DNA of 64,000 bases from an uncultured Eubacteriales bacterium. GTDB taxonomy: Bacteria; Bacillota; Clostridia; RGIG6154. The notes beneath the pieces are model-generated. The model did not search any database. It was not told where the DNA came from and was given only the letters and a program-made list of their open reading frames with translations. The stretch is taken from NCBI GenBank assembly GCA_964492155.1, contig CAZBJD010000001.1, positions 5,729 through 69,728 on the forward strand, in the 5' to 3' direction. Positions within the stretch are counted from its first letter, which is position 1; the number at the start of each line of letters is the position of its first letter. The position numbers were made by a program, and so were the translations under genes. Shown here piece after piece: positions 1,568-63,824 of this stretch.

Positions 1568-2878
1568 ATGGAAAAAATTAACGAGAAGTTCAAAAAGGTT
1601 GAAAGACCCGAAAAAGTAATTCAGTTTGGCGAAGGTGGTTTTTTAAGAGGCTTTGTTGACTGGATGCTTCAGAAATTGAATGAAAGCGGCAAATATAACG
1701 GTAGTGTTGTTGTAGTTCAGCCAATTGAACAGGGAATGTGTGACAAATTGTCTGAGCAAGACTGTATGTATACTCATGTTATGCGTGGTATTGAAAACGG
1801 CGAAGCTGTAGTTCGTAAAGATGTTATAGACGTTATCTCAAGATGCGTTAAACCTTATGATAATTATGACGAATATTTAAAACTGGCTCATAATCCTGAT
1901 TTTAGATTGGTGGTTTCCAATACAACTGAGGCAGGTATTGCATATGTGGAAGGTGATAAATTGGATGATGCTCCTCCTAAATCTTTCCCTGCAAAAGTAA
2001 CAGCTCTCTTATATGAAAGATTTAAAGCAAAACTTCCCGGATTTATTTTCATCCCTTGCGAGCTTATTGATAACGCAGGCGATAATTTAAAACGTATCGT
2101 TCTTCAGTATGCAAGTGACTGGAATTTACCTGAAGATTTTGTTTTATGGGTTAATAATGATAATATATTCTGCAATACTTTGGTTGACAGAATTGTTACC
2201 GGTTATCCCAAAGACGAGGATATGGAGCTTGGTTATATAGATAATATGGTTAACACATCTGAAGTGTTTCATTTCTGGGCAATTGAAGGACCGGCCTGTC
2301 TTGCTGATGAGCTTCCGTTTGATAAAATAGGTCTTAATGTTATCTGGACAGATAATCTTGCAATGTATAAAAAAAGAAAGGTAAGAATTTTGAATGGTGC
2401 ACATACATCGTTAGTGCCATATGCTATGCTTAATGGCTTTGATACCGTCAAGTCATGCATTGATGATGAAAAAATGCTTGCTCACCTCAAAAAATGCGTG
2501 TACGACGAAATTGTTCCTACGCTTGACCTCCCTCGTGAAGAACTGATTGAATACGCAGATGCTGTTGTTGAAAGATTTGCAAATCCGTATATAAAGCATT
2601 ATCTTTCTTCCATTGCACTTAATTCTGTAAGTAAATTTAAAGTAAGAGTATTGCCTTCAATTCTTGAATATATTAAAAGATATGATAAAATGCCTGATGA
2701 ACTTATACTTTCTTTTGCTGCTTTGATAAAATTCTATAAAACCGATATGAAAAATGATGATAAAGATGTCGAAGAATTTATGGCAAAAGCTACTACGGAA
2801 GAAATCCTTGCGAAAACCGAGTATTGGGACCAGGATCTTTCTTTCTTGCTTAATGAGGTGAAAAAGTATGAAAATTAA
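1568..2878 (+). CDS. uxaB: Tagaturonate reductase (altronate oxidoreductase).
   Basis: N-terminal …VIQFGEGGFLRGFVDWM… mannitol-dehydrogenase-family signature. Start chosen at MEKINEK (ORF-track start 1535). Followed by uxaA and uxaC. Confidence 0.8.
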   Translation: MEKINEKFKKVERPEKVIQFGEGGFLRGFVDWMLQKLNESGKYNGSVVVVQPIEQGMCDKLSEQDCMYTHVMRGIENGEAVVRKDVIDVISRCVKPYDNYDEYLKLAHNPDFRLVVSNTTEAGIAYVEGDKLDDAPPKSFPAKVTALLYERFKAKLPGFIFIPCELIDNAGDNLKRIVLQYASDWNLPEDFVLWVNNDNIFCNTLVDRIVTGYPKDEDMELGYIDNMVNTSEVFHFWAIEGPACLADELPFDKIGLNVIWTDNLAMYKKRKVRILNGAHTSLVPYAMLNGFDTVKSCIDDEKMLAHLKKCVYDEIVPTLDLPREELIEYADAVVERFANPYIKHYLSSIALNSVSKFKVRVLPSILEYIKRYDKMPDELILSFAALIKFYKTDMKNDDKDVEEFMAKATTEEILAKTEYWDQDLSFLLNEVKKYEN

Positions 2879-16780: not shown

Positions 16781-17122
16781 TCAAAATAAAGGGCAAAGAG
16801 GGTATATTAACTTAAATATAAAAAAGATTATTACACAAAGAACTATTACAAATGCAGAGAATATAAGAGCTGCAGCTGCATAGTTCTTTTTGTTTATGTT
16901 TGTTTTTGAAGAACAACACCAAGTAACAAAAGAAATTAAATTTACCAGTGGTATTATTGACAAAGCAAACATTAGCAAATAGTCGGAAATTTTAAGCATT
17001 CGTATCTTTTTAGTTTGTGGTAATGTTGAATAAGCTCTTTGCTTCGCAGTGAGAGGAGAACCGCAATTCTTGCAGTATGTATCATTTTCATTTATTTGTT
17101 TTCCGCATATAGGACAATTCAT
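16781..17122 (-). CDS. Zinc-ribbon membrane protein of unknown function.
   Basis: CPICG…CKNCG zinc ribbon followed by two transmembrane segments. Confidence 0.5.
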   Translation of the reverse strand: MNCPICGKQINENDTYCKNCGSPLTAKQRAYSTLPQTKKIRMLKISDYLLMFALSIIPLVNLISFVTWCCSSKTNINKKNYAAAALIFSAFVIVLCVIIFFIFKLIYPLCPLF

Positions 17123-17592: not shown

Positions 17593-17646
17593 ACAAATCA
17601 CCCATATAAGTTTATTATATAAATATGATTTTGTCAAGAAACAGTA

Positions 17647-17674
17647 ACAAGATATTAATTTTATTCATAATATA
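17647..17674 (+). promoter_or_regulatory. Candidate mother-cell (sigmaK/sigmaE-class) promoter.
   Basis: AC - 17 nt - CATAATATA, close to the sigmaK -10 consensus CATAnnnTA. It lies upstream of the mini-ORF. Confidence 0.3.
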
Positions 17675-17716
17675 AAACGAGGACACAAGTTCCAATAATT
17701 AATAGGAGGAGTTATT

Positions 17717-17800
17717 ATGTTAAACTGTAATTCTGAAAAAGGTATGGATACCGGTATTTTATTCTTTATTCTGGTATTTTTGATTTTGTTTGCTTGCTAA
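17717..17800 (+). CDS. 27-aa hydrophobic peptide, MLNCNSEKGMDTGILFFILVFLILFAC. Possibly YjcZ-like.
   Basis: Perfect AGGAGG 7 nt upstream of the ATG. It is not in the ORF track because it is short. Confidence 0.4.
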   Translation: MLNCNSEKGMDTGILFFILVFLILFAC

Positions 17801-17814
17801 CATATTTTTAATCC

Positions 17815-17846
17815 GAGTGCCATACAATTATCTTAGTATGGCACTC
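17815..17846 (+). other. Perfect stem-loop, stem 11 bp and loop 10 nt.
   Basis: gagtgccatac-aattatctta-gtatggcactc. No U-tract on either strand. Located 10 nt upstream of the RBS of the next ORF. Confidence 0.6.
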
Positions 17847-17871
17847 CGCCTTGGAAAGGAGTAAAACAGCT

Positions 17872-18114
17872 GTGGATATATTAGGTAAAAACATTGACCC
17901 CGAGGTACTGCAAAAGATTGCTGATGTTCTGAAAACGCCCGAAGGAAATAAACTGAAATCACAAATGCAAAACGTAGACAAAGAATCTTTGATGAAGTTG
18001 CTCACACAAATGAATATGTCGCAGCAGGATATTGTTGAAGCAAGTAATAAAATTAAAGAACTTTCGCAAGCAGAGTTGATGAATAAAATATTTGAAAAAT
18101 TGAGAAGGAGCTAA
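17872..18114 (+). CDS. Hypothetical small protein, helical and K/E-rich.
   Basis: GTG at 17872, 10 nt after AGGAG (the ORF track gives TTG at 17851). I recognise no domain. Confidence 0.4.
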   Translation: MDILGKNIDPEVLQKIADVLKTPEGNKLKSQMQNVDKESLMKLLTQMNMSQQDIVEASNKIKELSQAELMNKIFEKLRRS

Positions 18115-18116
18115 AA

Positions 18117-18500
18117 ATGGATAGCAATGCTGTTAATATGTTCAATAGCCTGTTGTCAAACCCGGATGCATTAAATAATATAAAAGATATGTTTAATAAT
18201 ATTAATGGGGAAAATAAACTTGACGGGAATTTCGCTGAAAAAACATCAGGTAACGATGATAATAAATCTAATCAACCTGATATGACATTTATTATTGACT
18301 TAATCAACAAAAATCAAAATAAGGAGTTGTTGCGAAAAGTCAGCAATGCATACAGTGCTTATTCAAGCAATTCATCGCCGGGAATTGGACTGCTTGAAGC
18401 ATTATCACCTTATTTAAGCAGTAAACGCTCAGCCAATCTTGAAATGGTTAAAAATGTCATAAGAATGACAAATGCAGTTTCCGAATTTAACCGAAAATAA
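18117..18500 (+). CDS. Hypothetical N/S-rich low-complexity protein.
   Basis: 127 aa. Its start is 3 nt after the previous stop, suggesting translational coupling. Confidence 0.4.
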   Translation: MDSNAVNMFNSLLSNPDALNNIKDMFNNINGENKLDGNFAEKTSGNDDNKSNQPDMTFIIDLINKNQNKELLRKVSNAYSAYSSNSSPGIGLLEALSPYLSSKRSANLEMVKNVIRMTNAVSEFNRK

Positions 18501-18512
18501 TATTAGGAGGAT

Positions 18513-18767
18513 ATGATGGAGCGAAGGTATTACAGGCAATATGAGAATTTTGATACTGTGGTTCCAAGAATTGACGATTTTCCTGTTCTTGATGCACACA
18601 CTGCCGCCAGTACAAAGTGTGATGATAATTCGGCAATTTTATCCGGTATTAAGGCAGATGATATAATCCTGCTGGGGATATTGATATTGCTGCTGTTAGA
18701 AGATGAAAAAGACATTACTGCAATACTCGGCATTGCTTTTTTGTTCTTGGCCGAGTACATATTTTAA
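18513..18767 (+). CDS. Hypothetical small protein with a C-terminal hydrophobic segment.
   Basis: 84 aa, RBS AGGAGG. Convergent with yihY. Confidence 0.3.
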   Translation: MMERRYYRQYENFDTVVPRIDDFPVLDAHTAASTKCDDNSAILSGIKADDIILLGILILLLLEDEKDITAILGIAFLFLAEYIF

Positions 18768-18776
18768 AGCCGCACA

Positions 18777-19574
18777 TTATGTGTGGCTTTTTAATTTACC
18801 GATGTAAGCATTAATATAACCGCCGAAAATTATTACAAATGAACACAAGTAAAGCCACAGCAAAAGGACAATTACGCTTCCCATAGTTCCATATAATTTT
18901 GAATAATCTGCAATTTGGCTGACATAGTACGAAAAAAATATCGATGACAAAGATAAGCCTGCAGTTGCAAAGATTGCTCCGGGTATTGCTTCGGAAAATT
19001 TAAGACGTTTTGGTGGCAAAATCATATACAGAAGCACCATATCTACTATTATTATTACAATTGTTGCCAACATTGTTAAGGTGTGCGAAAAATAGGTAAT
19101 GTCAATATATCGTGATATAAAACTCAGGCATATATTTACTAACAATGTAGCAAAAAATGAAAACACAATGAGAAACAGGACTACAATAGTTACGGCGATA
19201 GATACCACTCTTGAAATTAATGGGTTTTTCGGGATGTCGGTCTGATAATTTTCAGCAAGTGTTACTTTTAGAGAGTTAAAAAGCATTGATGATGACCACA
19301 AAGCAATTATGATATATACAACTGTATGAGTCGAAGATGAATCAACCGTTATTGTTAAAAAAGTGTTATATATTATGTCATATGTCATTGAAGGAAATAT
19401 ATAATGCAAGCTATCCAGGAAATTAACAACAGATAAAGAAAAAACAGATAGTAATTTTGTAATTATATAAATGAACGGAAATAAAGAAAGCAGAAAATAG
19501 AAAGCTGCCTGAGCAGAATGCATAAATATATTCTTTTTTATAATATTAGTAATAAATTTTTTTACGTGTAGCAT
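18777..19574 (-). CDS. YihY/BrkB-family membrane protein.
   Basis: …AAFYFLLSLFPF… signature. Likely start at MLHVKK (19574). The ORF track extends to a TTG at 19616. Confidence 0.75.
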   Translation of the reverse strand: MLHVKKFITNIIKKNIFMHSAQAAFYFLLSLFPFIYIITKLLSVFSLSVVNFLDSLHYIFPSMTYDIIYNTFLTITVDSSSTHTVVYIIIALWSSSMLFNSLKVTLAENYQTDIPKNPLISRVVSIAVTIVVLFLIVFSFFATLLVNICLSFISRYIDITYFSHTLTMLATIVIIIVDMVLLYMILPPKRLKFSEAIPGAIFATAGLSLSSIFFSYYVSQIADYSKLYGTMGSVIVLLLWLYLCSFVIIFGGYINAYIGKLKSHT

Positions 19575-24274: not shown

Positions 24275-24343
24275 TCGAAACGAATATTAAACACACTTCA
24301 CGCATACTATTTAGTAACTTGAGTAAGCGGGGAGTGTGTTTTT

Positions 24344-42526: not shown

Positions 42527-44839
42527 TTGATTATTTATGATATACCTGTACTTCCTTTGAGAGGAATTGTTGTTTTTCCCGGAATTCAGATACATTTTGA
42601 CGTTGAAAGAAAATCAACCATAGCTGCTATCAAAGAAGCGTTGAAAAATGAACAAATGGTTTTTTTAGTATCACAGAAAGATCCGGTCGTAGATAAACCT
42701 CTTTCCGATGATATATATTCCTGTGGTACTTTAGCAAAAATTTCGCATTTTCTCAAATCGTCAGAAAATACATATCGTGTTGTTGTAACCAGCTTATACA
42801 GAGTAAATGCCACTGATATAAAAAACACCAAAGGATTTTTAACATGTAATGTTGAAAAAACAAGCGTTACAAACGACTTTAACCTTGATATTCCTGAAGA
42901 TTTGCAAAAATACAGGGAATTAAGAAATAAATCTTATTTGTATTTCACTACTGCTAACAACAATGTACCGAATGTGGTGGCTAATTCATTTGACTCACAT
43001 AAGCCTTTGTTAAATATATGCGATAATATCAGTTCAAATCTTGTTATAGAGCACAATGAACTGCAGTCACTTCTGGATATTACAGATGTTAGAGAATTGT
43101 TTGGCAAGTTGATTGCTTTTTTAGACAGAGAAATCAGAATTAATGAAATTGAGTCGGAAATCCAAGGTAAAGTTAAACAAAAAATTGATAAAAATCAAAG
43201 AGAATATTATTTAAATGAACAGTTGAAAACAATCAAAAACGAGCTTGGGGATGCCGAAGATTTTGATAGCATATGTGATGAGTATTATGATAAAATCATT
43301 AATTTAAAATTGCCTGAAATCAGTGAAAAAAAATTAATTAAAGAAATAGACAGACTCAGCAATATGAATCTTCATTCCTCGGAAGCCGGAGTGATTATAT
43401 CTTATCTTGATTTAGTTTTGGATTTACCGTGGAATTATTCTACGAATGATAATCTTGATGTGAACAATGCAAAGAATATTCTTGATGAACATCATTTTGG
43501 TTTAAATGATGTTAAAGAGAGAATTTTAGAGTATATTGCAGTCAGACAACTTGGTGGAATTGGGAATGGAAATATAATATGTCTCGTGGGACCTCCCGGT
43601 GTAGGTAAAACTACTATTGCGGAATCTTTGGCAGCGGCACTTGGAAGAGTATACACAAGAATTTCATTGGGCGGTCTTAAGGATGAAAGTGAAATTCGCG
43701 GTCACAGGAAGACGTATATTGGAGCTATGCCCGGACGTATAATTAACGCATTTAAGCAAACTGAAGTTAACAATCCGTTAATTTTACTTGATGAAATCGA
43801 TAAAATTGCTTCTGATTTCAGAGGTGATCCGTCGTCTGCATTGCTTGAAGTTCTTGATAATGGACAAAACAAGGAATTTAAAGATAATTACCTGGAAATT
43901 CCTTTTGATATTTCTAATGCAATTTTTATCGCTACAGCTAATGATGTTTCATCTATTCCTTCGGCATTGATTGACAGAATGGACATTATTTCAATTCCCG
44001 GATATACTTTCGAAGAAAAATTGCAAATTGCAAAGCAGCACTTAATTCCCAATGAAATTTTCAAACATGCTATAAAAGGTGTATCTTTTGCAGATGACGC
44101 TTTGGAAAAAATAATACTTTCTTACACCAGAGAAGCAGGTGTTAGAAATCTCGACAGATGCATTCAAAAGATATGTCGTAAATGTGCGGTAAAAATCGTT
44201 GAAAGCAATTCAAAAAGGACAAAAATTACTGCAAATACTGTTAAAAAGTATTTGGGAACAGAGGCATATTCTAATTCTGACGTTTTATCATTAGATAAGT
44301 GCGGAATAGTAACAGGTCTTGCCTGGACACAATATGGCGGCGAGGTTCTTAATATTGAAGCAGTTTTGATGGAAGGCAAAGGGAAATTACAATTAACCGG
44401 CAATTTGGGTGAGGTAATGAAAGAATCAGCACAGATTGCTTTCTCATATGTTAAGTCCAACTGCAAAAAATATGGAATTGATATATCTCAAATTAATGAA
44501 AAAGATGTGCACATACACGTTCCTGAAGGTGCTGTACCCAAAGATGGACCATCCGCAGGCGTCACTATTGTTACTGCATTGATATCCGCTTTTACAGGTA
44601 AGCAGTTTAAACAAGGATTTGCTATGACCGGAGAGGTTTCTCTGACAGGGAAAGTTCTTCCTATTGGCGGATTAAGGGAAAAAAGTTTAGCGGCACTCCA
44701 AAATAATATTAACACTGTACTTATACCTTATGGTAATAAACGTAATCTTAATGATGTATCGGAAACCGTAAAACAAAAAATTAAATTTATTACTGTTAAT
44801 GATGTATCTGAGATTATAAAAATTGCGTTAAATTCATAA
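42527..44839 (+). CDS. lon: ATP-dependent Lon protease.
   Basis: GPPGVGKTT Walker A and the PKDGPSAGVTI catalytic Ser. TTG start. Confidence 0.9.
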   Translation: MIIYDIPVLPLRGIVVFPGIQIHFDVERKSTIAAIKEALKNEQMVFLVSQKDPVVDKPLSDDIYSCGTLAKISHFLKSSENTYRVVVTSLYRVNATDIKNTKGFLTCNVEKTSVTNDFNLDIPEDLQKYRELRNKSYLYFTTANNNVPNVVANSFDSHKPLLNICDNISSNLVIEHNELQSLLDITDVRELFGKLIAFLDREIRINEIESEIQGKVKQKIDKNQREYYLNEQLKTIKNELGDAEDFDSICDEYYDKIINLKLPEISEKKLIKEIDRLSNMNLHSSEAGVIISYLDLVLDLPWNYSTNDNLDVNNAKNILDEHHFGLNDVKERILEYIAVRQLGGIGNGNIICLVGPPGVGKTTIAESLAAALGRVYTRISLGGLKDESEIRGHRKTYIGAMPGRIINAFKQTEVNNPLILLDEIDKIASDFRGDPSSALLEVLDNGQNKEFKDNYLEIPFDISNAIFIATANDVSSIPSALIDRMDIISIPGYTFEEKLQIAKQHLIPNEIFKHAIKGVSFADDALEKIILSYTREAGVRNLDRCIQKICRKCAVKIVESNSKRTKITANTVKKYLGTEAYSNSDVLSLDKCGIVTGLAWTQYGGEVLNIEAVLMEGKGKLQLTGNLGEVMKESAQIAFSYVKSNCKKYGIDISQINEKDVHIHVPEGAVPKDGPSAGVTIVTALISAFTGKQFKQGFAMTGEVSLTGKVLPIGGLREKSLAALQNNINTVLIPYGNKRNLNDVSETVKQKIKFITVNDVSEIIKIALNS

Positions 44840-62753: not shown

Positions 62754-63824
62754 TTACTTACGTTCCTTTATCACAGAATTAATTACATTTAAAATTTTAT
62801 CAGTACTTTTTAATACATCGGTATTTTCCTGATTAAAAATATATTTATCTTTATTGTTATACAGTGTCATAACTTTATCAAAAAAGTTGTCAACATTGAG
62901 TTCTTCCTCCTCTATATAGTCTGCATAACCCGATTTTGAAAAAGACTTAGCATTTAATATCTGGTCTCCGCGACTCGCTTTTTTAGAAAGCGGTATTAAT
63001 AGCATAGGTTTATTTAGAGCCAGAAGTTCGAAAATAGTTGTGGAACCTGCTCGAGATACAAAAAGTTCTGTAGCAGCAAAAATATCTTTAAGTTCATCTG
63101 AAACATAATCAAGCTGGCAATATCCTTCAACATTCAACAGAGTTTCCTCAATCTTACCTTTTCCGCAAATATGACATATATTAAATATATTTAACAGCTC
63201 TTGTAAATTCGCCCGAACAACTTTATTTAAAAATGCCGAGCCCTGACTCCCGCCAATTACGGTAAGAACAGGCTTGTTATTAGAAAAACCGCAGAATGAA
63301 ATTCCGACATCCTTGCTACCGGATGTCAATTCATTTCTTACAGGCAAGCCGGTGTATACGCTTTTTTCTGAAGGAATAAACTTTGCAGTTTCCGGAAATG
63401 CATAGCAAATTCTTGTTGCAAAAGGCACACATAATTTATTTGCAAGCCCCGGTGAAAAATCAGACTCATGCAGCACCACAGGAATCTTAAGTTTAGACGC
63501 TGCCCAAACAACAGGGCAAGATACAAAACCGCCTTTGCTGAAAACCACATCCGGTTTTTCTTTCTTCAAAATTTTGTGTGCCTGAAAAAAACCTTTGCAA
63601 ATTTTAGAAATATCTTTAATATTTTCGACATCTATATAACGTCTGAGTTTTCCTGCCTCAATTTCAAAAAAAGGCACATTTTGTTCATTGATGAGTTCAA
63701 ACTCCAATCCTTTTTTTGTTCCAAGGTATATAATTTCAAATCCTTGATTTTTAAGCTCCGGGAACATTGCAATATTGGGCGTAACGTGGCCCGATGTTCC
63801 ACCACCGGTCATAGCAATTTTCAA
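62754..63824 (-). CDS. murG: MurG-like GT28 N-acetylglucosaminyltransferase.
   Basis: G-loop MTGGGTSGHV. TTG start after AAAGGAGAG. Confidence 0.75.
   Translation of the reverse strand: MKIAMTGGGTSGHVTPNIAMFPELKNQGFEIIYLGTKKGLEFELINEQNVPFFEIEAGKLRRYIDVENIKDISKICKGFFQAHKILKKEKPDVVFSKGGFVSCPVVWAASKLKIPVVLHESDFSPGLANKLCVPFATRICYAFPETAKFIPSEKSVYTGLPVRNELTSGSKDVGISFCGFSNNKPVLTVIGGSQGSAFLNKVVRANLQELLNIFNICHICGKGKIEETLLNVEGYCQLDYVSDELKDIFAATELFVSRAGSTTIFELLALNKPMLLIPLSKKASRGDQILNAKSFSKSGYADYIEEEELNVDNFFDKVMTLYNNKDKYIFNQENTDVLKSTDKILNVINSVIKERK

What the first reader, a model, noticed from the sequence alone, without database searches (positions are those of the whole stretch)
17647..17800. Unannotated 27-aa hydrophobic peptide gene with a perfect SD and a sigmaK-like promoter
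ATG at 17717 is preceded by AGGAGG at optimal spacing. It encodes MLNCNSEKGMDTGILFFILVFLILFAC: a polar head plus a single hydrophobic helix ending in Cys. Upstream lies AC - 17 nt - CATAATATA, which matches the mother-cell sigmaK -10 consensus CATAnnnTA. The peptide resembles the small YjcZ-type sporulation peptides of Firmicutes. It is missed by length-filtered ORF callers.
Basis: partly seen in the sequence, partly recalled or inferred. Interest (0 to 1): 0.5.

Follow-up and report, generated by a model that had tools for sequence, protein, structure and literature searches.

The report
Unannotated conserved sporulation-type membrane micropeptide gene
A real but never-annotated 27-codon gene encodes a tiny, very hydrophobic membrane peptide that is strictly conserved in a group of uncultured spore-forming gut Clostridia and sits behind a promoter of the late-sporulation (sigma-K) type; what the peptide does is not known.

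Summary
ATG 17717 follows AGGAGG (17704-17709) by 7 nt and opens a 27-codon ORF (17717-17800), behind AC-17 nt-CATAATATA.

It is a real gene. The same ORF lies at the same place in 11 other lineages. The 12-residue core ILFFILVFLILF is invariant, yet it is written in 12 different nucleotide versions. All 17 third codon positions vary, against 3 second positions, while the neighbouring proteins are only 30-64% identical.

No gene caller lists it, and 1.84 billion protein representatives give no match.

The upstream promoter, GTAACA-15/16 nt-CATAnTAT, is invariant in all 11 lineages with upstream sequence. It matches mapped C. difficile sigma-K promoters (GTAACA in 7/25 sigma-K, 0/47 sigma-E).

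A stem-loop after the stop codon covaries: 10 of 14 pairs change on both sides. It carries a second, sigma-E-type promoter (ACATATT-14 nt-CATACAAT) for the three downstream genes.

It is not a YjcZ family member. The family HMMs score YjcZ-like controls at about 50 bits and miss all 12 peptides. It is only analogous in design.

Most likely it is a late mother-cell, C-terminally anchored single-helix membrane peptide. Its function is untested.

The parts
17644..17649 (+).
   Evidence: Invariant in all 11 lineages with upstream sequence. The same hexamer is in the -35 region of 7/25 mapped C. difficile sigma-K promoters and 0/47 sigma-E promoters.
17666..17673 (+). P1 -10 box CATAATAT (mother-cell type)
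   Evidence: CATAnTAT is invariant in 11/11 lineages, while the 15-16 nt spacer is variable in sequence. PMC3789822 calls CATATTAT the canonical -10 box for mother-cell sigma factors. The AC-to-CATA distance is 16-17 nt; the mode in C. difficile sigma-K promoters is 17.
17681..17692 (+). Small stem-loop GGAC-ACAA-GUUC about 2 nt from the predicted transcription start (about 17679)
   Evidence: RNAfold finds a stem-loop at this place in 7 of the 11 leaders. The GRAC-N4-GTTC repeat is also present in L011 and L052, where the minimum-energy fold differs. L143 and L147 have unrelated stems at the same place. L014 and L145 have short leaders and lack it. The start position is inferred from C. difficile, where the start lies 6 nt after the 8-nt -10 box. 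A role as a 5' stabiliser is inference.
17704..17709 (+). Shine-Dalgarno AGGAGG, 7 nt before the ATG
   Evidence: GGAGG, or GGAG in L143, lies upstream of the start codon in all 12 lineages.
17717..17800 (+). Micropeptide gene, 27 codons plus TAA: MLNCNSEKGMDTGILFFILVFLILFAC
   Evidence: Homologous ORFs of 25-34 codons are found in 11 other lineages. The core ILFFILVFLILF is invariant and is encoded by 12 different nucleotide versions. Variable columns by codon position 1/2/3 are 6/3/17 of 17. Over the last 18 codons in six lineages, pS is 0.37-0.90 (14 of 15 pairs at least 0.65) and pN is 0-0.14.
17800..17806 (+). P2 -35 box ACATATT (ATA type); it overlaps the last base of the stop codon
   Evidence: AACATA is invariant in 11/11 lineages. 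It always lies exactly 14 nt before a CATAnnnT box. Of the mapped C. difficile sigma-E promoters, 34/47 carry ATA in the -35 region, and the ATA-to-NATA spacing has its mode at 16, as here.
17821..17828 (+). P2 -10 box CATACAAT, embedded in the 5' arm and loop of the stem-loop
   Evidence: CATA is invariant, including in L147, whose stem-loop sequence is otherwise different (CATATATT at the same offset). It is identical to the -10 box of the mapped sigma-E promoter of CD2865. Predicted start is about 17834.
17815..17846 (+). Conserved RNA stem-loop (GAGUGCCAUAC / GUAUGGCACUC) 14 nt after the stop codon, with no U-run
   Evidence: In 11 lineages: 14 pairs, 92% of cells paired, 10 pairs changed on both sides, and 0/500 shuffles reach the observed values. 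Sliding the partner drops pairing to 24-43% (six-sequence version). U-G wobbles in L014, L143 and L145 work only on the + strand RNA. It is not reported as an intrinsic terminator.
17872..18114 (+). g1, 80 aa, unknown function; SD AGGAG at 17857-17861
   Evidence: Follows the peptide gene in all 12 lineages. No Pfam or NCBIfam family above threshold.
18117..18500 (+). g2, 127 aa, unknown function (LLSNP ... ALSPYLS..R motif)
18513..18767 (+). g3, 84 aa, hydrophobic C-terminal half, unknown function
   Evidence: Conserved in synteny. No Pfam family. Followed by a terminator-like hairpin at 18766-18790.

Best explanation
This is a translated, previously unannotated gene for a 25-34-residue peptide. 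The peptide has a short polar head that always holds at least one Cys, then an invariant Asp-Thr/Ser, then an invariant 12-residue hydrophobic stretch (ILFFILVFLILF) that runs to within two residues of the C-terminus. The C-terminal residue is Cys in 11 of 12 lineages.

SHOWN: the ORF is under strong purifying selection at the protein level. It is the first cistron of a conserved block: peptide gene, stem-loop, then g1, g2 and g3. Two promoter-like footprints and one RNA stem-loop are phylogenetically conserved.

INFERRED, transcription: the gene is transcribed late in the mother cell by sigma-K RNA polymerase from P1 (GTAACA-16-CATAATAT). The product would be a compact mRNA of about 170 nt, with a 5' stem-loop, a perfect SD and a 3' stem-loop that ends or stabilises the transcript. 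g1-g3 have their own, earlier sigma-E-type promoter P2, built into the region after the stop codon and the 5' arm of the stem-loop.

INFERRED, the peptide: the whole peptide fits inside the ribosome exit tunnel, so it must insert into a membrane after translation. It would insert as a tail-anchored single helix with the head in the mother-cell cytoplasm. It would act through sequence-specific helix packing, using the Phe stripe at positions 17, 21 and 25, either with itself or with a membrane partner such as g3. That would make it a small structural or regulatory subunit in late spore morphogenesis.
For: Coding. Twelve lineages carry the ORF. In the last 17 codons the variable columns by codon position are 6/3/17, and 12 distinct nucleotide versions encode the identical 12-residue core. 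The flanking g1, g2 and g3 proteins are only 30-48, 38-61 and 41-64% identical to those of the window. Over the last 18 codons in six lineages, pS is 0.37-0.90 (14 of 15 pairs at least 0.65) and pN is 0-0.14. GGAGG, or GGAG in L143, lies upstream of the start codon everywhere.

P1. GTAACA and CATAnTAT are invariant in 11/11 lineages with a variable spacer. GTAACA occurs in the -35 region of 7/25 mapped C. difficile sigma-K promoters and 0/47 sigma-E promoters, and the spacing matches the sigma-K mode. PMC3789822 states that sigma-E and sigma-K share the -10 box and differ at -35, ATA against AC.

P2. ACATAww-14 nt-CATAnnnT is present at a fixed offset in 11/11 readable lineages.

Stem-loop. 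Covariation is strong.

Sporulation setting. spoIIIAH, spoVE and a spoVD-type PBP lie 2-6 kb upstream.

Precedent. B. subtilis yjcZ, a tiny hydrophobic peptide gene, belongs to the sigma-K regulon (PMC517825).
Against: There are no expression, translation or localisation data, because the organism is known only from metagenomes.

The promoter classes are assigned from motifs. Each loose motif alone is not enriched in the window (5 against 2.6 expected; 3 against 1.6).

The hydrophobic stretch plus its flanks is only about 15-18 residues, which is short for spanning a bilayer.

The stem-loop lacks a U-run, so it is not a canonical terminator, and read-through from P1 into g1-g3 is possible.

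Two lineages (L014, L145) have 23-nt leaders without the 5' stem-loop.

Distant relatives of the g1-g3 block (L146, L148) lack the peptide, so it is not essential to that block.

No partner protein was identified.
Confidence: 0.6

Rival explanations
1. It is a divergent member of the YjcZ family of sigma-K-dependent sporulation peptides (TIGR01732 / PF09680).
For: The design is the same: a tiny size, a Cys/Asn/Gly-containing head, one very hydrophobic segment and a sigma-K-type promoter.
Against: None of the 12 peptides hits TIGR01732 or PF09680 at E<=10, while two YjcZ-like controls score 48-53 bits against cut-offs of about 21. An HMM of the 12 peptides, run with filters off, scores the controls at -0.8 and -2.0 bits. 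The hydrophobic motifs differ: ILFFILVFLILF here against FALIVVLFILLIIVG in the controls. This peptide also ends right after the helix.
Confidence: 0.08
2. It is the toxin of a type I toxin-antitoxin pair or another membrane-damaging peptide, for example a sigma-K-timed effector of mother-cell lysis.
For: It has the size and hydrophobicity of type I toxins (review PMC10730256). The timing of a sigma-K promoter would suit mother-cell lysis.
Against: It holds a fixed chromosomal position, between the same genes, in every lineage where the flanks are readable. It is absent from viral contigs. The SD is strong and exposed. The only promoter-like sites on the - strand lie in sequence that is not conserved. 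According to the review, B. subtilis type I toxins are transcribed by sigma-A. Such strict sequence conservation is unusual for toxins that only perturb membranes.
Confidence: 0.07
3. It is a cis-acting leader ORF. Its translation, or the stalling of ribosomes on it, would control g1-g3 through the stem-loop, as in ErmCL-, TnaC- or MifM-type attenuation.
For: A short ORF lies immediately upstream of an operon, with a conserved stem-loop starting 14 nt after its stop codon. In several lineages the flanks of the stem-loop can pair with the g1 SD.
Against: The g1 SD lies outside the stem-loop. In L078, L143 and L147 the SD is a further 40-60 nt away. The box after the stop codon is better explained as the -35 of P2. 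The stem-loop has no U-run. Seventeen consecutive residues are constrained, far more than known arrest motifs need. A MifM-type insertion monitor is impossible, because the whole peptide is still inside the ribosome at termination.
Confidence: 0.07
4. It is a chance ORF inside a conserved non-coding RNA or promoter region.
For: No Pfam or NCBIfam family and no protein-database match. It is short and AT-rich.
Against: Variation is concentrated at third codon positions of this frame (17/17, against 3/17 at second positions). Leucine codons switch between the TTR and CTN families while the amino acid is kept. The start codon, the stop position and the SD are kept in 12 lineages. There is no Rfam match.
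Confidence: 0.01

Closest known systems
YjcZ family sporulation peptides (NCBIfam TIGR01732, Pfam PF09680 YjcZ_2)
   Same: A tiny peptide with a short polar head containing Cys, Gly or Asn and one extremely hydrophobic segment. B. subtilis yjcZ is in the sigma-K regulon (PMC517825), and this gene has a conserved sigma-K-type promoter. Annotation often overlooks both.
   Different: There is no detectable sequence relation in either direction. The hydrophobic motif differs. This peptide ends two residues after the helix. It is single-copy in the window and fixed in one operon context, whereas YjcZ genes occur as several paralogues in B. cereus (PMC8313275).
SpoVM and CmpA (small mother-cell morphogenetic peptides of B. 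subtilis)
   Same: They are of similar size (SpoVM is 26 aa), are made in the mother cell and act at the forespore surface (PMC10730256). This locus lies near spoVD and spoVE.
   Different: SpoVM is an amphipathic surface helix under sigma-E. This peptide is uniformly hydrophobic, so it would be transmembrane or buried, and its promoter is of sigma-K type. There is no sequence similarity.
Type I toxins (Fst, TxpA, BsrG and similar)
   Same: Hydrophobic single-helix peptides of about 30 aa that gene callers miss.
   Different: Those are paired with an antisense RNA, are driven by sigma-A, are patchy in distribution and are often on mobile elements. This gene is syntenic in every lineage where the flanks are readable, has no conserved antisense promoter and gives no hit in viral contigs.
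Mapped sigma-K and sigma-E promoters of Clostridioides difficile (Saujet et al. 2013, PMC3789822, Table S7)
   Same: P1 (GTAACA-16-CATAATAT) has the same form as the promoters of CD1067, CD1518, cotE, cotA and CD3613. P2 (ACATATT-14-CATACAAT) shares its -35 with CD0311 and its -10 with CD2865.
   Different: The assignment here rests on sequence and conservation only. The organism is a different, uncultured Clostridia lineage.

Membership tests
YjcZ family (TIGR01732 / PF09680) | Scores above the curated cut-off (about 21 bits) of the family HMM | tested here: not met
   All 12 peptides give no hit at E<=10 in NCBIfam and Pfam. Two YjcZ-like positive controls score 48-53 bits. The reverse HMM gives -0.8 and -2.0 bits.
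YjcZ family (TIGR01732 / PF09680) | Tiny protein (under about 50 aa) with one hydrophobic segment after a short polar head | tested here: met
   25-34 aa, a head of 8-16 residues with at least one Cys, then DT/DS-x-ILFFILVFLILF.
YjcZ family (TIGR01732 / PF09680) | Sigma-K-dependent expression during sporulation | not testable with these tools
   Only a conserved sigma-K-type promoter motif is available. There are no transcript data.
Sigma-K-dependent promoter (clostridial type) | -35 with AC (often GTAACA), then 16-18 nt, then a -10 box CATAnnnT | tested here: met
   GTAACA-15/16 nt-CATAnTAT, equivalent to AC-16/17-CATA, in 11/11 lineages. Calibrated on Table S7 of PMC3789822.
Sigma-K-dependent promoter (clostridial type) | Transcription lost in a sigK mutant, with the start about 6 nt after the -10 box | not testable with these tools
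   The organism is uncultured and no RNA data are held.
Sigma-E-dependent promoter (P2, for g1-g3) | -35 with ATA, then 15-17 nt, then a -10 box CATAnnnT | tested here: met
   ACATA[TA][TC]-14 nt-CATAnnnT, equivalent to ATA-16-CATA, at a fixed offset from the stop codon in 11/11 readable lineages. The mode in C. difficile is 16.
Type I toxin-antitoxin | Overlapping or adjacent antisense RNA antitoxin with its own conserved promoter | tested here: inconclusive
   The only promoter-like sites on the - strand fall in non-conserved sequence. No RNA data are held.
Type I toxin-antitoxin | Patchy, often mobile-element-linked distribution | tested here: not met
   The same position relative to the g1-g3 block in 12 lineages, with the YfcE-type phosphoesterase gene upstream wherever that sequence is available. 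There are 0 matches in viral contigs.
Regulatory leader peptide (ErmCL, TnaC or MifM type) | The downstream SD or a terminator lies in a structure that a ribosome on the leader remodels | tested here: not met
   The g1 SD lies outside the stem-loop and is 40-60 nt away in L078, L143 and L147. There is no U-run.
Lipoprotein signal peptide (lipobox) | [LVI][ASTVI..][GAS]C lipobox after a hydrophobic core and a positively charged n-region, followed by a mature protein | tested here: inconclusive
   L-F-[A/G/S]-C is present in 10/12 lineages. Against it: nothing follows the Cys, the n-region is about neutral with an invariant Asp at its end, L078 has YC and L147 ends in VY. The lipobox rule is taken from my own knowledge, and no predictor was run.

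The most novel reading that the evidence does not exclude
The peptide is not just a passive anchor. It may be a new class of minimal, sequence-invariant 'helix-only' peptide whose C-terminal L-F-[A/G/S]-C is a lipobox with no mature protein behind it. The terminal Cys would then be diacylglycerylated at the outer face of the membrane, which would leave a lipid-tagged peptide or release a lipo-cysteine. Alternatively, it may be a sigma-K-timed membrane effector that triggers a late event such as mother-cell lysis. Either reading would account for the absolute conservation of the 12 hydrophobic residues, which an ordinary anchor does not need.
Probability: 0.1. Interest if true: 0.75.

Novelty: new member of a known kind. 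Interest (0 to 1): 0.45.

Why it matters
It adds a well-supported, unannotated gene family to the small set of tiny peptides linked to endospore formation, in a gut Clostridia lineage known only from metagenomes.

The case shows how much signal a 27-codon ORF can carry. Synonymous sites are saturated, while the hydrophobic helix is invariant.

It also shows a compact regulatory layout. A sigma-K-type promoter drives a hairpin-bounded micro-mRNA, and a sigma-E-type promoter for the next genes is built into that hairpin.

The invariant helix points to a specific molecular partner worth finding. The three downstream genes, which are more widespread in Clostridia and also uncharacterised, are the first candidates.

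Tried and rejected
Only two true homologues (L052, L078) were recovered, and the scan cannot be repeated.
- An exhaustive phmmer search with the 33-aa stop-to-stop translation gave 0 hits. This was expected, since callers skip ORFs this short.
- A search with g1 found only the same species.
- PDB sequence searches found nothing relevant: no match for the peptide at E<=10, and for the g2 profile only two weak matches (best E 0.03).
- Rfam gave only noise.
- PHROGs gave one spurious hit at 15.9 bits.
- I considered that the conserved box after the stop codon pairs with the g1 SD (translational coupling). I dropped this because three lineages have 40-60 nt between the stem-loop and the SD, and because the box fits a sigma-E -35 at exactly 14 nt from a CATAnnnT box in every lineage.
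- I considered reading that box as a second sigma-K promoter. I rejected this because its AC-to-CATA spacing is 19 nt, whereas 16 of the 21 measurable mapped sigma-K promoters have 16-18 nt.
- A sigma-A reading of P1 (GTAACA-16-CATAAT scores 9/12) is less likely. The C that replaces the key first T of the -10 box is invariant in 11 lineages.
- No paper contains the string ILFFILVFLILF.

Full report
**1. The observation**

- AGGAGG lies at 17704-17709, 7 nt before the ATG at 17717.
- The ORF 17717-17800 encodes MLNCNSEKGMDTGILFFILVFLILFAC.
- An in-frame TAA at 17696-17698 excludes a longer form.
- AC at 17647-17648 is followed by 17 nt and then CATAATATA at 17666-17674.

On its own the loose sigma-K consensus is not significant: 5 matches in the window against 2.6 expected, and 17 of 100 shuffles reach that number. 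This is, however, the only ORF of 15-45 codons in the 64 kb with both a strong SD and a hydrophobic run of at least 12 residues. No Pfam, NCBIfam or Rfam family matches.

**2. Context**

The ORF lies in an intergenic gap of about 230 nt.
- On the - strand, upstream, is a YfcE-type phosphoesterase gene with its own conserved TTGACA-17-TAAACT promoter.
- On the + strand, downstream, are three small genes of unknown function: g1 (80 aa), g2 (127 aa) and g3 (84 aa, with a hydrophobic C-terminal half).
- spoIIIAH, an Asp23-family gene, spoVE, a spoVD-type PBP and a HydG-like radical SAM gene lie 1-6 kb upstream.
- A BrkB/YihY-family gene and gyrase/topoisomerase IV-type subunit genes lie downstream.

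The organism is therefore a spore-forming member of the Clostridia. Related contigs come from uncultured 'Clostridia bacterium' MAGs, one of them from goat colon.

**3. It is a real gene**

Relatives of g2 are rare: 6 clusters with one sequence as query and 36 with a profile. I used them, together with direct DNA pattern scans, to collect syntenic loci. The small ORF is present at the same place in 11 further lineages.

| Locus | Peptide |
|---|---|
| window | MLNCNSEKGMDTGILFFILVFLILFAC |
| L007 | MYNKNCEKGMDTSILFFILVFLILFGC |
| L011 | MYNKKCEKGMDTSILFFILVFLILFGC |
| L014 | MLRKQHECMDTSILFFILVFLILFSC |
| L052 | MFNNCNSGKGIDTSILFFILVFLILFAC |
| L078 | MGCCGNEKGFDTSILFFILVFLILFYC |
| L137 | MFNCNSEKGMDTSILFFILVFLILFAC |
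| L139 | MYNNCNTNKGIDTSILFFILVFLILFAC |
| L141 | MFNNCNTDKGIDTSILFFILVFLILFAC |
| L143 | MGCTGKKIDSNILFFILVFLILFAC |
| L145 | MCRKHNECGMDSSILFFILVFLILFSC |
| L147 | MLRCGCENNCHKECGKMDTGILFFILVFLILFVY |

The substitution pattern is that of coding sequence under strong purifying selection.
- The 12-residue core is identical in all 12 lineages but is encoded by 12 different nucleotide versions, with 4-11 differences per pair over 36 nt.
- In the last 17 codons the variable columns at codon positions 1, 2 and 3 number 6, 3 and 17.
- Leucine codons switch between TTR and CTN while the amino acid is kept.
- Over the last 18 codons in six lineages, pS is 0.37-0.90 (14 of 15 pairs at least 0.65) and pN is 0-0.14.
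- In the same lineages g1, g2 and g3 are only 30-48, 38-61 and 41-64% identical to those of the window.

This pattern is specific to the frame of the ORF, so a purely RNA-level or promoter-level explanation is excluded.

None of the NCBI, ENA, JGI or Logan gene lists for these loci contains the ORF. In L143 an over-extended phosphoesterase call on the other strand even runs across it. An exhaustive search of 1.84 billion protein representatives found nothing.

More distant versions of the phosphoesterase/g1-g3 block (L146 and L148, higher in G+C) lack the peptide. The peptide is therefore a clade-specific addition to an older module.

**4. Regulatory anatomy**

*Promoter P1.* In all 11 lineages with upstream sequence, GTAACA and CATAnTAT are invariant and are separated by 15-16 nt of unconserved sequence. 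I calibrated this against the experimentally mapped C. difficile promoters in Table S7 of PMC3789822.
- GTAACA occurs in the -35 region of 7 of 25 sigma-K promoters (for example cotE, cotA, CD1067 and CD1518) and of 0 of 47 sigma-E promoters.
- The AC-to-NATA spacing has its mode at 17. Here it is 16-17.
- The transcription start lies 6 nt after the 8-nt -10 box.

[quoted passage not shown] P1 is therefore a textbook clostridial sigma-K-type promoter.

*Leader.* The predicted start (about 17679) is followed within about 2 nt by a small stem-loop, GGAC-ACAA-GUUC at 17681-17692. RNAfold finds a stem-loop at this place in 7 of the 11 leaders. The GRAC-N4-GTTC repeat is also present in L011 and L052. 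L143 and L147 have unrelated stems at the same place, and L014 and L145 have short leaders without one. From general knowledge of Bacillus mRNA decay, I read it as a 5' stabiliser. This is inference.

*3' stem-loop.* Fourteen nt after the stop codon lies the stem-loop GAGUGCCAUAC/GUAUGGCACUC (17815-17846).
- In 11 lineages, 92% of cells pair and 10 of 14 pairs change on both sides.
- No shuffle out of 500 reaches the observed values, and sliding the partner drops pairing to 24-43%.
- U-G wobbles in three lineages work only on the + strand, so the structure acts in the P1 transcript.
- It has no U-run and is not scored as an intrinsic terminator.

I therefore call it a 3' boundary or stabiliser, with leaky termination possible.

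*Promoter P2.* The top of the stem (CCAUAC/GUAUGG), the first loop bases (AAU) and the box AACATATTT just after the stop codon are almost invariant, while the base of the stem covaries. A second promoter explains this. ACATA[TA][TC], then exactly 14 nt, then CATAnnnT is found at a fixed offset in all 11 readable lineages. That includes L147, whose stem-loop sequence is otherwise different. This equals ATA-16-CATA, the modal sigma-E geometry. The -35 box equals that of CD0311 and the -10 box CATACAAT equals that of CD2865. P2 would start transcription inside the 3' arm (about 17834) and serve g1-g3, which end at the terminator-like hairpin at 18766-18790.

*Proposed layout.* The proposed layout is a sigma-K-driven micro-mRNA for the peptide, nested against a sigma-E-driven g1-g3 operon. 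Each motif alone is not enriched in the window. The evidence is the phylogenetic footprint.

**5. The peptide**

These features can be read from the sequences.
- The head is 8-16 residues long, roughly neutral, and always holds at least one Cys at a varying position.
- An invariant Asp followed by Thr or Ser sits at the start of the helix.
- Twelve invariant hydrophobic residues follow as three quartets (ILFF, ILVF, LILF). This puts F17, F21 and F25 on one face of a helix.
- Then come one small residue (A, G or S in 10 of 12) and a terminal Cys (11 of 12).

The whole chain is shorter than the ribosome exit tunnel, so any membrane insertion must follow translation (tail-anchor logic). The invariance of the helix is far beyond what an anchor needs. 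It points to specific packing or recognition. I could not identify the partner. g3 is the nearest membrane-protein candidate.

**6. Comparison with known families**

*YjcZ.* The family HMMs detect two YjcZ-like control peptides at 48-53 bits. They detect none of the 12 peptides at E<=10. An HMM of the 12 peptides, with filters off, gives the controls -0.8 and -2.0 bits. It is not a member. It is analogous in size, layout and probable sigma-K control; yjcZ belongs to the B. subtilis sigma-K regulon (PMC517825).

*SpoVM and CmpA.* They share the mother-cell setting, but SpoVM is amphipathic and sigma-E-dependent.

*Type I toxins.* They share size and hydrophobicity. Against this reading are the fixed synteny, the exposed SD, the lack of a conserved antisense promoter, the promoter type and the absence from viral contigs.

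*Leader-peptide attenuation.* This does not fit the geometry.

*Lipobox.* The ending L-F-[AGS]-C-stop fits the lipoprotein lipobox, which I noticed from memory and did not test. The neutral head, the invariant Asp, and the YC and VY variants argue against an ordinary signal peptide.

**7. Verdict**

It is a new, unannotated family of tiny hydrophobic peptides in an uncultured clade of spore-forming Clostridia. The gene has a conserved sigma-K-type promoter, a hairpin-bounded mRNA and an embedded sigma-E-type promoter for the neighbouring genes.

| Claim | Confidence |
|---|---|
| It is a translated gene | about 0.95 |
| Mother-cell sigma-K-type control | about 0.65 |
| It is a membrane helix | about 0.7 |

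Its molecular role is unknown. It is a new member of a known kind (small sporulation-associated membrane peptides), of moderate interest.

Noticed in passing
window 17800-17828, and the same offset in L007, L011, L014, L052, L078, L137, L141, L143, L145 and L147: A second conserved promoter footprint of sigma-E type (ACATATT-14 nt-CATACAAT) lies directly after the peptide stop codon. Its -10 box is embedded in the 5' arm and loop of the conserved stem-loop, and it presumably drives g1-g3.
   Followed up: yes
window 17872-18767; L146 2765-3734; L148 2726-3707: The three-gene module g1-g2-g3 has no Pfam family. It sits next to a YfcE-type phosphoesterase gene in L146, as in the window. In L148 an AraC-family gene lies between the two. 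Recurring motifs are TPEG in g1, LLSNP...ALSPYLS..R in g2, and RRYYRQYE or NRYIPQPDG plus a hydrophobic tail in g3. The module is also present in more distant, higher-GC Clostridia that lack the peptide. In L146 it is preceded by AC-17-CATATAGTA, a sigma-K-like motif.
   Followed up: partly
window 17609-17637, - strand: A near-consensus sigma-A-type promoter (TTGACA-17-TAAACT) is present for the divergent phosphoesterase gene. The TTTGTCAA box on the + strand is conserved across lineages. The phosphoesterase probably starts at the TTG near 17593 rather than at 17637.
   Followed up: partly
L143 1671-2318, - strand: The public gene call for the phosphoesterase is over-extended to 215 aa, against 157-181 aa in the other syntenic loci. 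It runs across the peptide gene on the opposite strand, which is one way the small gene gets masked.
   Followed up: no
window 18766-18790: An 11-bp hairpin (AAAGCCGCACA...TGTGTGGCTTT) lies between the convergent g3 and BrkB/YihY genes. It looks like a shared bidirectional terminator.
   Followed up: no
window 16781-17122, - strand: A 113-aa protein with an N-terminal zinc ribbon and hydrophobic segments is conserved next to the phosphoesterase gene in most syntenic loci.
   Followed up: no
window 2241-2270 (-), 24283-24310 (+), 43573-43600 (-), 63156-63183 (+): These are other matches to the loose sigma-K or sigma-E motifs, for example GAAACA-16-CATATTAT at 2241-2270. I did not check them for conservation or gene context. 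By the shuffle counts most are probably chance.
   Followed up: no
L147 433-537: One lineage has a longer variant of 34 aa. Its head carries four Cys (MLRCGCENNCHKECGK) and it ends in VY instead of x-Cys. The C-terminal Cys is therefore not universal, while Cys in the head is.
   Followed up: partly
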